Shown one piece after another: positions 13,440-18,029 of a DNA stretch of 64,000 nucleotides. This DNA is from Escherichia phage PP01. The notes under the pieces were generated by a model. It was not told where the DNA came from and ran no database searches. It saw nothing but the letters and a program-made list of their open reading frames with translations. The stretch lies in the sequence record NC_054930.1; one strand, written 5' to 3'. Position 1 is the stretch's first letter, and every line of letters starts with the position of its first letter. The position numbers and the translations under genes were made by a program.

Positions 13440-13910
13440 CTAGCGATAAAAACCAAAATAACGATTAGTTTCAATAATCTTTCTTTCTTCTTCGGACATT
13501 CTCCAGCGTAGTCCAACATCAAAATGAGCCCAGACCATCTTAACAAATGCATTTATATCTTTAATATCTTCAATAATGAATGTTTTACTTTTAGAAGGTT
13601 GACTCGCTAATTTAACTTTATCGTCTTCAAACAGGTCAAAAAGACCATATTCATGAGCTCTTTTATAGCCTTTAATAGTTAAAGCTTCAGAAGAAGAAAA
13701 TGGTGAATCAGTATTCTGCAAAATATCTTCAGTATGCTTTATAATTAGAATAACATTTTCTGGATATTTTCTTTCTTTTATATCTTTAATTAAAATATCC
13801 GGATTTTCTGCTAAAGGAATAATTAATGAGCACTTTTTATCAAGTGTATTTACTGATTTACCTTCTTTGGACATAAATTCTATTGAATAATGTTTTGCTA
13901 CTTCAATCAT
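13440..13910 (-). CDS. hypothetical protein
   Basis: 156-aa ORF in early gene chain. Confidence 0.5.
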
Positions 13911-14063: not shown

Positions 14064-14267
14064 TCACGATTTATCCCCATAGATGTCTCTCATCAATTTA
14101 AGCGCTGAGCGTTCTAATTTCTTTTCTTTCTCAGCACTAATCATTGATTTCATCCATTCTTCTGATTCGTTCTGCATTTCTTTATTTGCTTGTTCAACCC
14201 AACCATCATCAATGTACATTGAGTTTGGTCTACTGAACCATTCAAGCATTTTCTTCAGAACTTTCAT
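14064..14267 (-). CDS. small hypothetical protein
   Basis: 67-aa ORF. Confidence 0.4.
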
Positions 14268-14739
14268 TTGTTTTACCTAAAACAACAGTAGGAGCATCAT
14301 CAAATTCATGAATTTTTAGCAAATTTGGATGTAAACTATTCCATACAGAAGAAATAAAGTATGATAAAGCATCTTCACTCACAATTATAAATTTATTTCC
14401 TTTATCTATTTTCCAGCTATATACTGAATCATACGAATAGAAAGATAAAGGTTTATCATTATATTGTTCTGCGCTAACATTAATGTATTCGGATTTAGTA
14501 AATGCTTCAATTGCTCTAAATGGAATATTTGGTACAGTTTCAATAATACCAATCTTTTTAAGTTTTATTTCAGCATCTTCTGGAACTGGCATTGAAACAA
14601 AATTTTCTACGAGATACATTGGGTCACAATAACCCTTATCAATCATTACTGCTACTGTAATTGGAACATCTTTAGCAAACGACATGCTATTACTGCTAAT
14701 ATACATTTCAAACAAAATCGCTTCCATAATTTTCCTCAA
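14242..14739 (-). CDS. hypothetical protein
   Basis: 165-aa ORF. Confidence 0.45.
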
Positions 14740-15077
14740 TCACAAGATGTAGATGAACAACTAGAATCGCAAGAACTTCCACACGAATCGCCCGTCCATA
14801 CATGAACAGGAACATTAGTGTCATATGAATCAGAACTAGACTGTGTATTCTGCGTATTAGATGATGTAGTAGGTGTTGACCAGCGCCAAGGATTTTTATA
14901 ATATTCTTGGGCTTCTTCATAAGTCATAGTAACTGCTTCTACTGTTCCATCTCCCATATAAACATACTCAACTACAGTTAAAGGGAGGTAGTCATTTGAA
15001 ATAGGAACTACACCTTCTCCGGGAGTTGTAGAGAAAAAATCCGTAAAGAAACTTTTAAACCAATTAAAGATAAACAT
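14736..15077 (-). CDS. hypothetical protein with Cys/Ser-rich C-terminal tail
   Basis: 113 aa; C-terminus [18 protein letters not shown]. Confidence 0.45.
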
Positions 15078-15283
15078 TACAAAAAGCCTCTCTTGAATTC
15101 GACTTGCTTTTCGCCATAATCATATCGAATCTCTGCATTAAATTCGACAGAACCATCTGCGTACATCATAAATGAGTGCACAACAACTTCTGTAGACCAT
15201 GGCTGCAGTTCATATTTCTTCATTACATGCCGTGAAATGATAATATCTAAATCTTCATTTGGTTTAATCCAACGATTTAACAT
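15077..15283 (-). CDS. small hypothetical protein
   Basis: 68-aa ORF downstream of early promoter at 15310-15339. Confidence 0.45.
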   Translation of the reverse strand: MLNRWIKPNEDLDIIISRHVMKKYELQPWSTEVVVHSFMMYADGSVEFNAEIRYDYGEKQVEFKRGFL

Positions 15284-15309: not shown

Positions 15310-15339
15310 ATTATACCATACTCATTTTGGAAAGTAAAC
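15310..15339 (-). promoter_or_regulatory. early promoter
   Basis: GTTTAC, 18 bp, TATAAT with TGG extension; just downstream of the soc terminator. Confidence 0.6.
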
Positions 15340-15349
15340 CAGTAAAATG

Positions 15350-15373
15350 AAAAAGGACTCCCGAAGGAGTCCT
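15350..15373 (-). terminator. rho-independent terminator after soc
   Basis: GGACTCC-CGAA-GGAGTCC stem followed by a T-run on the minus strand. Confidence 0.65.
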
Positions 15374-15378
15374 TGAAT

Positions 15379-15640: not shown

Positions 15641-15850
15641 TTAAATTACATGACTATTTATAATAAATTCTTGCGGAACGTTAAAATACCCAATTTTAGT
15701 TAATATAACAACATCACCGTTAATAATTACCGGAGAATAATCGGCTGGAGCATTAAACTTCCAATGAGCTCTAATATTATATCCATCAGAACCAAATGCT
15801 CGACTAGCCGGTCTCCCGGCTTTTTGCCATGCATAAAAATCAAATTTCAT
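15641..15850 (-). CDS. small hypothetical protein
   Basis: 69-aa ORF; occupies the locus where T4 has segF. Confidence 0.4.
   Translation of the reverse strand: MKFDFYAWQKAGRPASRAFGSDGYNIRAHWKFNAPADYSPVIINGDVVILTKIGYFNVPQEFIINSHVI
15655..15662 (-). promoter_or_regulatory. late promoter upstream of soc
   Basis: Exact minus-strand TATAAATA about 31 nt upstream of the soc ATG. Confidence 0.6.
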
Positions 15851-16636: not shown

Positions 16637-16837
16637 ATGGTACAAAAATTAATGGCACTTGTTAATGCCATAAAAGGTAATAAAAAACGTATAGCTTTTA
16701 CTATTTCTGCTATGATAGGAATTTTACTCTGGAATTTTGTTTTATCGCCAATTGCTATTGCTCATGGTGTTAATATTCCAGTAATTACTCTTGATACATT
16801 CGTAGATTTAGCATTTGCTTTGGTTGGGTTAATTTAA
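16637..16837 (+). CDS. small hydrophobic membrane protein (plus strand)
   Basis: 66-aa ORF preceded by AAGGAGG 7 nt from ATG; lies between the divergent 56 and 61 ends; two hydrophobic segments. Confidence 0.5.
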   Translation: MVQKLMALVNAIKGNKKRIAFTISAMIGILLWNFVLSPIAIAHGVNIPVITLDTFVDLAFALVGLI

Positions 16838-17864: not shown

Positions 17865-18029
17865 TTACTCTTCTTTTTCTTTAGATTCCTCTTTTTTCTT
17901 TTTAGGAATCTGTTCAGGACCTTTATTTACTGCAGCGCCTGACGTTGTTCCAGTGGAGATATTTTCAGGATTACCACCCGAATCTCCAGCTACCATATCT
18001 TCTTTGATAAATTCTTTATATGTTTTCAT
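17865..18029 (-). CDS. small hypothetical protein (61.1 position)
   Basis: 54-codon ORF found by hand (MKTYKEFIKEDMVAGDSGGN...); fills gap between 61 and the next gene. Confidence 0.35.
   Translation of the reverse strand: MKTYKEFIKEDMVAGDSGGNPENISTGTTSGAAVNKGPEQIPKKKKEESKEKEE

What the first reader, a model, noticed from the sequence alone, without database searches (positions are those of the whole stretch)
14736..15077. Protein with a Cys/Ser-rich C-terminal tail
The last 18 residues ([18 protein letters not shown]) form a low-complexity Cys-Ser repeat, unusual for a cytoplasmic phage protein and suggestive of metal binding or a modified tail; a Ser/Thr/Asn-rich linker precedes it.
Basis: seen in the sequence. 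Interest (0 to 1): 0.4.

Follow-up and report, generated by a model that had tools for sequence, protein, structure and literature searches.

The report
Conserved two-cysteine tail on T4 Mrh.1
The flagged protein is the uncharacterised early protein Mrh.1 of a T4-like phage, and its acidic, serine-rich tail with two invariant Cys-Asp units is conserved across related phages, so it is a real functional element of untested chemistry, most likely metal or thiol based.

Summary
Window 14736-15077 (minus strand) encodes a 113-aa protein ending [18 protein letters not shown]. It is T4 gene mrh.1 (Pfam DUF7206, function unknown) in a Tequatrovirus genome. It sits in an early operon, mrh.2-mrh.1-mrh, just after the soc terminator.

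All 112 full-length family representatives, down to about 26-30% identity, end ...YDSGS(S)-C-D-S-x(4-10)-C-(D/N)-COOH. Only two of the four T4 cysteines (C103, C112) are family-wide. Each is followed by Asp, and the last Cys is always penultimate. C99 and C107 are extras of the T4 lineage. Synonymous codon changes show selection on the protein.

AlphaFold2 predicts an N-terminal amphipathic helix, a small beta-hairpin (YMGDG..EEV) and a disordered linker and tail. No structural or sequence relative has a known function, and no paper mentions the gene.

My best guess, at low confidence, is a flexible thiolate/carboxylate arm that ligates a metal ion, either free or inside a host protein. The arm is probably tethered near the membrane by the N-terminal helix. 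A redox or decoy dithiol arm is the main rival. A RiPP-like modification is unlikely because no modifying enzyme is encoded nearby. Interest is moderate.

The parts
14736..15077 (-). mrh.1 coding sequence (113 codons plus TGA), a member of Pfam DUF7206 / phrog_2031
   Evidence: ORF listing. PF23836 scores 103 bits against a cut-off of 25.6, and phrog_2031 matches. The gene is annotated mrh.1 in phage ime09.
15033..15077 (-). Residues 1-15, [15 protein letters not shown]: an aromatic amphipathic N-terminal helix. The family motif is [FW]-[LIV]-K-x-[LF]-F with net positive charge. It is the proposed membrane or partner anchor (inferred).
   Evidence: AF2 predicts a helix at residues 4-15 and at 3-8 in P0014. 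The motif is present in 106 of 112 members. The hydrophobic moment is 0.56-0.61 against a control 95th percentile of 0.53.
14922..14978 (-). Residues 34-52, [19 protein letters not shown]: a beta-hairpin with a GDG turn. It is the most conserved block of the family (consensus [KR]E[YW][VI]YMGDGMMEEV).
   Evidence: Invariant residues Y40, G42, D43, G44 and E47. AF2 predicts strands at 34-40 and 46-52 with pLDDT 77-87. The mean fraction of sequences sharing the commonest residue per column is 0.71.
14805..14894 (-). Residues 62-91: a Ser/Thr/Asn/Gln-rich disordered linker, not conserved in sequence or length
   Evidence: pLDDT is below 50 from residue 71 on. The mean fraction sharing the commonest residue per column is 0.08, with 87% gaps. 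The distance from the hairpin to the conserved Cys ranges from 44 to 110 residues across the family.
14739..14804 (-). Residues 92-113, [22 protein letters not shown]: the pre-tail aromatic residue plus the acidic Ser-rich C-terminal arm.
   Evidence: Searches give the sequence. The mean fraction sharing the commonest residue per column is 0.66 in the tail. The arm is disordered in both AF2 models. Mean net charge of the last 25 residues is -3.5.
14769..14771 (-). Cys103 codon (TGC): the upstream family-wide conserved Cys, followed by Asp104
   Evidence: S102, C103, D104 and S105 are nearly invariant (at least 90%). The residue after this Cys is Asp in 102 of 112 members.
14742..14744 (-). Cys112 codon (TGT): the invariant penultimate Cys, followed by the C-terminal Asp113
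   Evidence: C112 is invariant. The terminal residue is D in 110 and N in 2 of 112 members. TGT/TGC and GAT/GAC alternate among homologues.
14781..14783 (-). Cys99 codon: an extra Cys specific to the T4 lineage
   Evidence: It is absent from all non-Tequatrovirus homologues, which have 2 tail Cys, except P0053 with 3.
14757..14759 (-). Cys107 codon: an extra Cys specific to the T4 lineage
15310..15338 (-). Sigma-70-type (T4 early-like) promoter, GTTTACT-17-TGgTATAAT, upstream of mrh.2. It is the inferred promoter of the mrh.2-mrh.1-mrh operon.
   Evidence: A 10-of-12 consensus match with an extended -10 TG. The sequence is shown.
15353..15374 (-). Intrinsic terminator hairpin that ends the late soc transcript and separates soc from the mrh.2-mrh.1 unit
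   Evidence: A 9-bp stem with 5 GC pairs followed by a T run.
15077..15283 (-). mrh.2 (68 aa, phrog_1873, function unknown). Its stop overlaps the mrh.1 start (TAATG), giving translational coupling.
14242..14727 (-). mrh (161 aa from the ATG at 14727, T4_MRH family). Its Shine-Dalgarno sequence GAGG overlaps the mrh.1 stop codon.

Best explanation
Mrh.1 is a non-essential early host-interaction protein of T4-like phages that infect Enterobacterales. It has four parts: an N-terminal aromatic amphipathic helix, a tiny conserved beta-hairpin (YMGDG..EEV), a disordered linker of free length, and a flexible acidic Ser-rich C-terminal arm.

The working end of the arm is two Cys-Asp units, the second being the very C-terminus (...S-C-D-S...S-C-D-COOH). 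I propose that this arm acts as a flexible thiolate/carboxylate ligand for a soft or borderline metal ion (Zn2+, Cu+, Fe2+ or an Fe-S cluster). It could capture or hand over free metal, or reach into the metal centre of a host protein. The N-terminal helix and hairpin would provide localisation, at the inner face of the membrane or on a partner protein.

Shown by the data: gene identity, the early-type promoter, family-wide conservation of the two Cys-Asp units under protein-level selection, predicted disorder of the arm, and amphipathicity of the N-terminus. Inferred only: metal ligation, membrane tethering, and any host target.
For: - Identity and context. The window is 99% identical to Tequatrovirus genomes. 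The gene is annotated mrh.1 and matches DUF7206. An early-type promoter lies directly after the soc terminator.
- Conservation. All 112 full-length representatives end C-[DN]. Asp follows the upstream Cys in 102 of 112. Cys is almost absent elsewhere, with 7 Cys in 10,882 residues outside the last 25. A third invariant Asp sits in the YDSG motif.
- Selection acts on the protein. TGT/TGC, GAT/GAC and all six Ser codons interchange. Within Tequatrovirus, tail differences are synonymous apart from T95A.
- The linker is free in sequence and length while the tail is fixed.
- Both AF2 models leave the tail disordered, as expected for a ligand arm.
- Some lineages add extra Cys (4 in the T4 group, 3 in P0053). 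That fits a role in which the number of thiolates matters.
- The tolerance to variable Cys spacing, together with an acidic neighbour at each Cys, fits chelation better than an enzyme-recognised redox motif.
- The same module sits on two unrelated small phage proteins, one of which carries a zinc-ribbon N-terminus.
Against: - No metal-binding experiment exists.
- There is no His and no CxxC, CxC or CC motif.
- Only two Cys are conserved, and their spacing ranges from 4 to 10 residues. Two thiolates alone give modest affinity unless Asp residues or dimerisation contribute.
- There is no sequence or fold similarity to any known metal-binding protein.
- The tail is strongly acidic and Ser-rich, which also suits other roles such as phosphorylation, mimicry or solubility.
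- No gene with a metal-related function is linked in the neighbourhood.
Confidence: 0.3

Rival explanations
1. The tail is a redox-active dithiol arm. The two Cys cycle between dithiol and disulfide, or carry a persulfide or mixed disulfide. In that way they would resemble the C-terminal Cys-pair tail of class Ia ribonucleotide reductase R1 or the DsrC/TusE arm. The tail would act as a substrate, decoy or trap for host thioredoxin or glutaredoxin, a sulfur-relay enzyme, or another Cys-dependent host protein.
For: There are two invariant Cys in a disordered C-terminal tail, and the last is penultimate. That matches DsrC/TusE, which I recall from memory. T4's own NrdA ends in an acidic Cys-pair tail...ADDCAACKL, so such arms are in use in this phage. 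A disulfide loop tolerates variable spacing.
Against: Known redox arms keep a fixed spacing: CX2C in T4 NrdA, and CX4C in E. coli NrdA and CX10C in DsrC from memory. Here the spacing is 4-10. An acidic residue directly after each Cys should raise the thiol pKa and make it a poor redox nucleophile. The tail ends C-D rather than C-K-L/I. There is no homology to the RNR or DsrC folds.
Confidence: 0.2
2. The tail is a thiol 'warhead' that inhibits a host zinc enzyme. The N-terminal amphipathic helix places Mrh.1 at the inner membrane. The terminal -Cys-Asp-COOH (a thiol plus carboxylates, like captopril-type inhibitors or the cysteine switch of metalloprotease pro-domains) plugs the catalytic zinc of a membrane metalloprotease. 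FtsH is the candidate because it controls sigma-32. This is a specific sub-case of the best explanation.
For: The N-terminus is amphipathic and basic. The penultimate Cys sits beside a terminal acidic residue. The gene lies in an operon with mrh and srh, which are annotated as modulators or decoys of sigma-32. PMC8076793 summarises the Mrh-rpoH link. Small amphipathic-helix peptides (lambda CIII, SpoVM) are known FtsH inhibitors, which I recall from memory.
Against: The case is purely circumstantial, with no interaction data. In the Cronobacter phage the gene has no mrh neighbour. The upstream Cys-Asp unit would be unexplained.
Confidence: 0.07
3. The tail is a site of post-translational modification. 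Candidates are RiPP-like chemistry (lanthionine or thioether, azoline), S-acylation, phosphorylation of the Ser/Tyr run, or conjugation through the C-terminal Asp. The modified form would be the active species.
For: The Ser/Thr/Cys-rich C-terminal core composition resembles RiPP core peptides. There is a weak composition-driven hit to the FxLD lanthipeptide precursor family (TIGR04363, 14 bits against a cut-off of 30). The terminal residue is restricted to Asp or Asn.
Against: No cyclodehydratase, lanthipeptide synthetase, radical-SAM enzyme or other modifying enzyme is encoded next to the gene in Tequatrovirus, Karamvirus, a Cronobacter phage or an unclassified contig. The TIGR04363 and PF25184 matches are below threshold. 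At 96-201 aa with a folded hairpin, the protein is unlike a leader-core precursor.
Confidence: 0.08
4. The tail is a generic acidic disordered region (a solubility tag, entropic bristle or nucleic-acid mimic), and the cysteines are incidental.
For: The composition is low-complexity (S 44%, D 17%, G 14% of the last 20 residues). The tail is predicted disordered.
Against: An incidental Cys would not be invariant at two positions in 112 of 112 representatives while Cys is nearly absent from the rest of the protein. The C-terminus would not be fixed as C-D, and YDSGS-C-D-S would not be preserved through synonymous codon turnover.
Confidence: 0.05

Closest known systems
T4 Mrh.1 / Pfam DUF7206 (PF23836), phrog_2031
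   Same: The window protein is this family. It is 97-100% identical to Mrh.1 of T4-group phages, gives a full-length HMM match, and sits at the same genomic position between soc/56 and mrh/modA.
   Different: Nothing differs. However, the family has no assigned function, and no paper in the searchable library mentions mrh.1 or DUF7206.
C-terminal Cys-pair tail of class Ia ribonucleotide reductase R1 (NrdA)
   Same: Both are flexible acidic C-terminal tails with two Cys close to the terminus. T4 NrdA ends ...ADDCAACKL. E. coli NrdA ends ...CESGACKI, from memory.
   Different: The RNR tails have fixed CX2C or CX4C spacing and end C-K-L/I. They are attached to the RNR catalytic subunit and serve as a thioredoxin/glutaredoxin shuttle. 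Mrh.1 has 4-10 residues between its Cys, an Asp after each Cys, and an unrelated 10-kDa body.
DsrC/TusE sulfur-carrier arm (from memory)
   Same: Both have a penultimate Cys on a flexible C-terminal arm, with a second Cys upstream.
   Different: DsrC has a strict CX10C spacing and a conserved globular fold. There is no sequence or fold similarity to it here.
Small Cys/Ser/Gly-rich metallothioneins, for example the Neurospora Cu-MT GDCGCSGASSCNCGSGCSCSNCGSK (from memory)
   Same: The composition of the T4-lineage tail (G, D, S, C; 4 Cys in 15 residues) is similar.
   Different: Metallothioneins rely on many Cys in CxC or CxxC arrays. Family-wide, Mrh.1 keeps only two Cys with variable spacing. 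No homology was detected.
Membrane-targeting amphipathic helices (MinD ...FLKRLF..., FtsA) and the FtsH-inhibiting amphipathic peptide lambda CIII (from memory)
   Same: The N-terminal [FW]-L-K-x-L-F motif is amphipathic and basic and is predicted helical.
   Different: Here the helix is N-terminal rather than C-terminal. Membrane binding is untested, and there is no homology.
RiPP precursors and the Ser-rich C-termini of class IIb microcins (from memory); YxzE-like putative bacteriocins (PF25184)
   Same: All have a Ser-rich C-terminal segment. P0123, a protein that carries the same tail module, gives a sub-threshold PF25184 hit (34.6 bits against a cut-off of 40).
   Different: Mrh.1 itself does not match PF25184. 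There are no modification or export genes nearby. YxzE's 'bacteriocin' label is only an in-silico BAGEL prediction.

Membership tests
Pfam DUF7206 / T4 Mrh.1 | HMM match above the curated cut-off over the full length | tested here: met
   PF23836 scores 103.1 bits against a cut-off of 25.6, covering residues 3-113 and profile positions 1-107 of 107. phrog_2031 matches at E 3.7e-33.
Pfam DUF7206 / T4 Mrh.1 | Conserved genomic position between soc/gene 56 and mrh/modA in Tevenvirinae | tested here: met
   The window, ime09, CC31 and Cronobacter phage vB_Cdu_VP8 all place it there.
Metallothionein-like Cys-rich metal-binding tails | A dense, conserved array of Cys in CxC, CC or CxxC motifs | tested here: not met
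   The T4 group has C-x3-C-x3-C-x4-C, but only 2 Cys are conserved family-wide, with spacing of 4-10 residues. No CxC or CxxC motif is present.
Metallothionein-like Cys-rich metal-binding tails | Demonstrated metal binding | not testable with these tools
   This needs ICP-MS or spectroscopy on purified protein.
Redox-active C-terminal Cys-pair arms (RNR R1 tail; DsrC/TusE) | Cys pair at fixed spacing within the family | tested here: not met
   The spacing distribution is 4 (3 members), 5 (4), 6 (56), 7 (18), 8 (27), 9 (3) and 10 (1). T4 NrdA is CX2C.
Redox-active C-terminal Cys-pair arms (RNR R1 tail; DsrC/TusE) | Cys at or next to the C-terminus on a flexible arm | tested here: met
   Cys is penultimate in 112 of 112 members. 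The tail is disordered in the AF2 models.
Redox-active C-terminal Cys-pair arms (RNR R1 tail; DsrC/TusE) | Homology of the protein body to RNR R1 or DsrC | tested here: not met
   No PDB sequence match. The best Foldseek E-value is 1.8, on a low-confidence model.
RiPP precursor peptides (lanthipeptide, LAP, ranthipeptide) | A cognate modifying enzyme encoded in the same locus | tested here: not met
   The neighbours are mrh.2, mrh, srh, soc, modA/B and gene 56, or small unknown ORFs.
RiPP precursor peptides (lanthipeptide, LAP, ranthipeptide) | Match to a precursor family model above its cut-off | tested here: not met
   TIGR04363 scores 14.1 bits against a cut-off of 30.
YxzE-like putative bacteriocin (PF25184) | HMM match above the cut-off | tested here: not met
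   Mrh.1 gives no hit at E<=1. Only the unrelated tail-bearing protein P0123 gives 34.6 bits, below the cut-off of 40.
Peripheral membrane proteins with an amphipathic-helix membrane-targeting sequence | A terminal amphipathic helix with a hydrophobic face and basic residues | tested here: met
   AF2 predicts a helix at 4-15 and at 3-8. The median maximum hydrophobic moment is 0.61 against a control 95th percentile of 0.53. The motif is present in 106 of 112 members, and the first 15 residues carry a mean charge of +1.7.
Peripheral membrane proteins with an amphipathic-helix membrane-targeting sequence | Actual membrane association | not testable with these tools
   This needs fractionation or imaging of a GFP fusion.

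The most novel reading that the evidence does not exclude
The C-terminal block (Tyr/Thr/Pro-rich stretch - SYDSGSS-C-D-S...C-D-COOH) may be a portable thiol/carboxylate 'warhead' cassette. Unrelated phages would attach it to different targeting modules: the DUF7206 helix and hairpin in T4-like phages, a zinc ribbon in P0122, and a short basic peptide in P0123. The cassette would plug or strip the metal centre of a host enzyme. In T4-like phages the target could be the membrane zinc protease FtsH, which would tie the gene to its sigma-32-modulating neighbours mrh and srh. This would be a previously undescribed class of phage-encoded, tethered metal-site inhibitors.
Probability: 0.07. Interest if true: 0.75.

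Novelty: new variant of a known kind. Interest (0 to 1): 0.4.

Why it matters
About half of T4's genes still lack a function, and mrh.1 is one of them. It lies in the early host-takeover block next to the ADP-ribosyltransferases and the sigma-32 modulators.

This work shows that the protein's only strongly conserved features are a tiny hairpin and a disordered arm ending in two Cys-Asp units. That gives experimenters precise point mutations to make: C103S, C112S, D104N, D113 deletion and tail truncation. It also gives them a short list of chemistries to test: metal content, thiol redox state and intact mass.

If the arm proves to be a metal-site ligand or a thiol decoy aimed at a host protein, it would be a new way for phages to interfere with host metallo- or thiol-enzymes. 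If not, it remains a well-defined but ordinary accessory protein.

Tried and rejected
- Literature. Searches for 'mrh.1', 'DUF7206' and combinations with mrh.2, soc.1 and modA.2 found no phage paper. The only relevant paper, PMC8076793, treats Mrh but not Mrh.1.
- Structure. Both AF2 models have low overall confidence (mean pLDDT 59 and 61). Foldseek against the PDB gave nothing with E<=0.001. A PDB sequence-profile search found only a chance hit at E=0.4. Tail-only searches of PDB sequences found nothing.
- Tail-only searches of the large collections.
  - A 42-aa tail profile recovered only two proteins at E>1, because composition-bias correction removes most of the score. It therefore cannot show how widespread the tail module is.
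  - The search for related loci with tail alignments gave either no usable block or 40 SYDSGSSC matches, none confirmed by tblastn. By my own estimate, about 30 such matches would be expected by chance.
- Relatives of P0122 and P0123. None were found in the phage records, IMG/VR or GTDB genomes. The single metagenome hit was RecR's zinc finger, a false lead.
- The YxzE 'bacteriocin' lead. The match is below threshold, and the label is only a BAGEL prediction. I rejected it as evidence.
- Mimicry of the RNR R1 tail. T4 NrdA ends DDCAACKL. It is similar in kind but differs in spacing and terminus, so I kept it only as an analogy.
- Other negative screens. No Rfam RNA family overlaps the region. 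There is no PADLOC match and no tandem DNA repeat.
- A conserved partner gene. The gene upstream of the CC31 homologue is not detectably related to mrh.2. The downstream gene is only weakly Mrh-like (21.8 bits against a cut-off of 24.4). The Cronobacter phage has Mod directly downstream. No obligatory neighbour was found.
Full report
OBSERVATION. The ORF at window 14736-15077 is on the minus strand and encodes 113 residues. A Ser/Thr/Asn/Gln-rich stretch precedes the tail. Among 157 ORFs of at least 60 aa in the window, no other has a comparable C-terminus: this one has 4 Cys, and 12 of its last 18 residues are Cys or Ser. Background frequencies are Cys 1.5% and Ser 6.9%. There is no tandem DNA repeat and no Rfam element in the region.

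IDENTITY AND CONTEXT. The surrounding 2 kb is 99% identical to Shigella phage Shfl2 and matches 561 phage records, most of them from Escherichia, Shigella and related enterobacterial hosts. In phage ime09 the gene is annotated mrh.1. Reading from upstream to downstream on the minus strand, the order is gene 61, gene 56, soc.2, soc.1, soc, mrh.2, mrh.1, mrh, srh, modA.4, modA.3, modA.2, modB, modA. The protein matches Pfam DUF7206 (103 bits against a cut-off of 25.6) and phrog_2031, and both have unknown function.

The mrh.2 stop overlaps the mrh.1 start (TAATG), and the mrh Shine-Dalgarno sequence overlaps the mrh.1 stop. The late soc gene has its TATAAATA promoter at 15655-15662. It ends in a strong hairpin terminator at 15353-15374. 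Immediately after that comes an early-type sigma-70 promoter, GTTTACT-17-TGgTATAAT, at 15310-15338. I therefore infer that mrh.1 is an early gene in the host-takeover block.

No paper in the searchable library mentions mrh.1 or DUF7206. The one structural-genomics paper on this region covers Mrh only.

CONSERVATION OF THE TAIL. An exhaustive phmmer search of 1.84 billion representatives found a few distant relatives at 34-60% identity. A profile search then gave 136 family members.

All 112 full-length representatives (96-201 aa, down to about 26-30% identity) end in C-D (110) or C-N (2). They also carry a second Cys 4-10 residues upstream, most often 6. That upstream Cys is followed by Asp in 102 of 112 and preceded by a YDSGS(S) motif. 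Outside the last 25 residues there are only 7 Cys in 10,882 residues.

In window numbering the family-wide pair is C103-D104 and C112-D113. C99 and C107 are additions of the T4 lineage, and one other lineage (P0053) has three Cys. The tail-less hits (P0005-P0009, P0063, P0069) are fragments or frameshifted copies. The search could therefore detect tail-less proteins, yet it found no intact one.

The mean fraction of sequences sharing the commonest residue per column is 0.71 for the hairpin, 0.66 for the tail and 0.08 for the linker, which is 87% gaps. The distance from the hairpin to the conserved Cys ranges from 44 to 110 residues.

At the DNA level, Cys uses TGT and TGC, Asp uses GAT and GAC, and Ser uses all six codons. 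Within Tequatrovirus the tail differs almost only synonymously. Selection therefore acts on the peptide, not on the DNA or on the downstream ribosome-binding site. The Cronobacter phage homologue has a 57-nt gap and a different downstream gene, yet keeps the same ending.

DISTRIBUTION AND SYNTENY. Homologues occur in T4-like phages of Escherichia, Shigella, Salmonella, Yersinia, Citrobacter, Klebsiella, Enterobacter, Cronobacter, Serratia, Erwinia, Edwardsiella and Kosakonia. They always lie at the same place, between gene 56/soc and mrh/modA. No neighbour is obligatory. The upstream gene in CC31 is not detectably related to mrh.2. The downstream gene there is only weakly Mrh-like. The Cronobacter phage has Mod directly downstream.

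ANATOMY. AlphaFold2 with a 60-sequence alignment gave the following for the window protein:
- a helix at residues 4-15;
- a beta-hairpin at 34-40 and 46-52, with the invariant MGDG in the turn (pLDDT 77-87);
- a short helix at 53-61;
- no structure from about residue 62 to the end, with pLDDT below 50 for most of residues 71-113.

A Mosigvirus-type member (P0014) shows the same N-terminal elements. It also has a long linker helix and a short hydrophobic helix (TTSIVVTAAAV) before the disordered tail.

The N-terminus carries a [FW]-[LIV]-K-x-[LF]-F motif in 106 of 112 members. Its hydrophobic moment (median 0.61) is above the 95th percentile of control segments (0.53). The first 15 residues have a mean net charge of +1.7, and the last 25 residues have a mean net charge of -3.5. 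There is no Sec- or Tat-like signal peptide (direct reading of the sequence). No fold or sequence relative exists in the PDB.

THE TAIL AS A MODULE. A tail-only profile has little statistical power, but it recovered two small proteins that lack the DUF7206 hairpin.
- P0123 (66 aa) has a basic N-terminus and ends ...PVYTPIYVDTSSSYDSGSSSSCDSGGGSDGGGGGGCD.
- P0122 (71 aa) has an N-terminal CxxC...CxxC zinc ribbon and ends ...SSYDSGSSSCDSGSSDSGGSCDSGGSF.

hhalign of the family alignment against each aligns only the tail block, at 95-96% probability. A caveat is that this is low-complexity sequence.

P0123 lies among replication genes (SNF2 helicase, PD-(D/E)XK nuclease, DUF927). Its SNF2 helicase neighbour is most similar to helicases of Pseudomonas, Acinetobacter and Xanthomonas phages, and the gene set is unlike a T4-type genome. 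Both proteins are singletons, and no relatives were found elsewhere. This is suggestive of a portable module, but not conclusive.

MECHANISM. Four things are shown. The protein is an early accessory protein. Its conserved parts are an amphipathic N-terminal helix, a tiny hairpin, and a disordered acidic arm with two invariant Cys-Asp units. The last unit is the C-terminus. Everything between the hairpin and the arm is free to vary.

The rest is inferred. I favour a flexible thiolate/carboxylate ligand arm that binds a soft or borderline metal ion, either free or within a host protein (confidence 0.3). My reasons are these:
- Each Cys has an Asp partner, and a third Asp is invariant in YDSG.
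- Lineages add further Cys.
- Spacing is tolerant, as expected for a floppy chelating loop.
- An acidic neighbour is unfavourable for a reactive redox thiol.

The main rival is a redox or decoy dithiol arm like the RNR R1 tail or the DsrC arm (confidence 0.2). T4's own NrdA ends ...ADDCAACKL. That shows the principle at work in this phage, but with fixed spacing and a different terminus.

A specific and more novel sub-hypothesis is a membrane-tethered thiol warhead against a zinc protease such as FtsH (about 0.07). It would fit the sigma-32-related neighbours.

A RiPP-like or other modification is unlikely (0.08), because no modifying enzyme is linked in any genus examined and the model matches are below threshold. 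A purely generic acidic tail (0.05) does not explain the invariant Cys.

COMPARISON AND NOVELTY. Membership in DUF7206/Mrh.1 is met on every test, so the gene itself has long been catalogued. It fails the defining tests of four other groups: metallothioneins (no dense conserved Cys array), RNR/DsrC-type arms (no fixed spacing, no homologous body), RiPP precursors (no enzyme, no model match) and YxzE-like peptides (no match).

It works most like the general class of flexible C-terminal Cys arms, but with its own signature: (Cys-Asp) twice, an obligatory C-terminal position, and a Ser/Asp/Gly/Tyr context. To my knowledge and in the searched literature, this signature has not been described. I rate it a new variant of a known kind, of moderate interest (0.4). 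It is a clean, testable motif in a model phage, but it does not yet bear on a major open question.

Noticed in passing
window 17865-18029 (-): Gene 61.1 (54 aa) begins MKTYKEFIKE. From memory this closely resembles the capsid-targeting sequence MKTYQEFIAE of the T4 internal proteins IPI, IPII and IPIII. The small Lys/Glu-rich protein might therefore be packaged into heads.
   Followed up: no
window 16637-16837 (+): A 66-aa strongly hydrophobic ORF lies on the opposite strand between genes 56 and 61. The equivalent ORF in ime09 is annotated RB69ORF029w-like hypothetical protein. It is a likely small membrane protein, transcribed against the local direction.
   Followed up: no
window 13440-13910 (-): modA.3 is a clear paralogue of Mrh (PF24070, E 3.4e-38; phrog_1234). 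The region therefore carries two Mrh-family genes.
   Followed up: partly
P0003 (Escherichia phage 235Ecol030PP; cluster of 17): This is a T4-type mrh.1 with a 51-aa insertion in the linker. The inserted sequence (MEEIIRQPEKAGNVGAGALPLNSKKLKEHLDSRR...IDTAPIITATAVSSW) matches the JS98/Mosigvirus-type linker. It is a mosaic made by recombination between genera, and the four-Cys tail is retained.
   Followed up: partly
L010:2095-2425; also P0006 and P0009: These are frameshifted or truncated copies of mrh.1 in some contigs and genomes. They are consistent with a dispensable gene or with sequencing errors in the low-complexity part.
   Followed up: no
L004:1-153 (Cronobacter phage vB_Cdu_VP8): A phage gene with a ribosome modulation factor (RMF, PF04957) domain lies a few kb from the mrh.1 homologue.
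   Followed up: no
window 15310-15374 (-): The soc late transcript ends in a strong hairpin terminator. Within about 15 nt it is followed by a near-consensus early promoter for mrh.2-mrh.1-mrh. This is a compact late-to-early transcription boundary on one strand.
   Followed up: partly
L023:4840-5040 (P0123) and L024:1235-1450 (P0122): Two small proteins from metagenomic phage-like contigs that are not T4-like carry the same SSYDSGSS-C-D-SG...C-D tail on different N-termini, one a basic peptide and the other a zinc ribbon. Both are singletons with no relatives found.
   Followed up: partly
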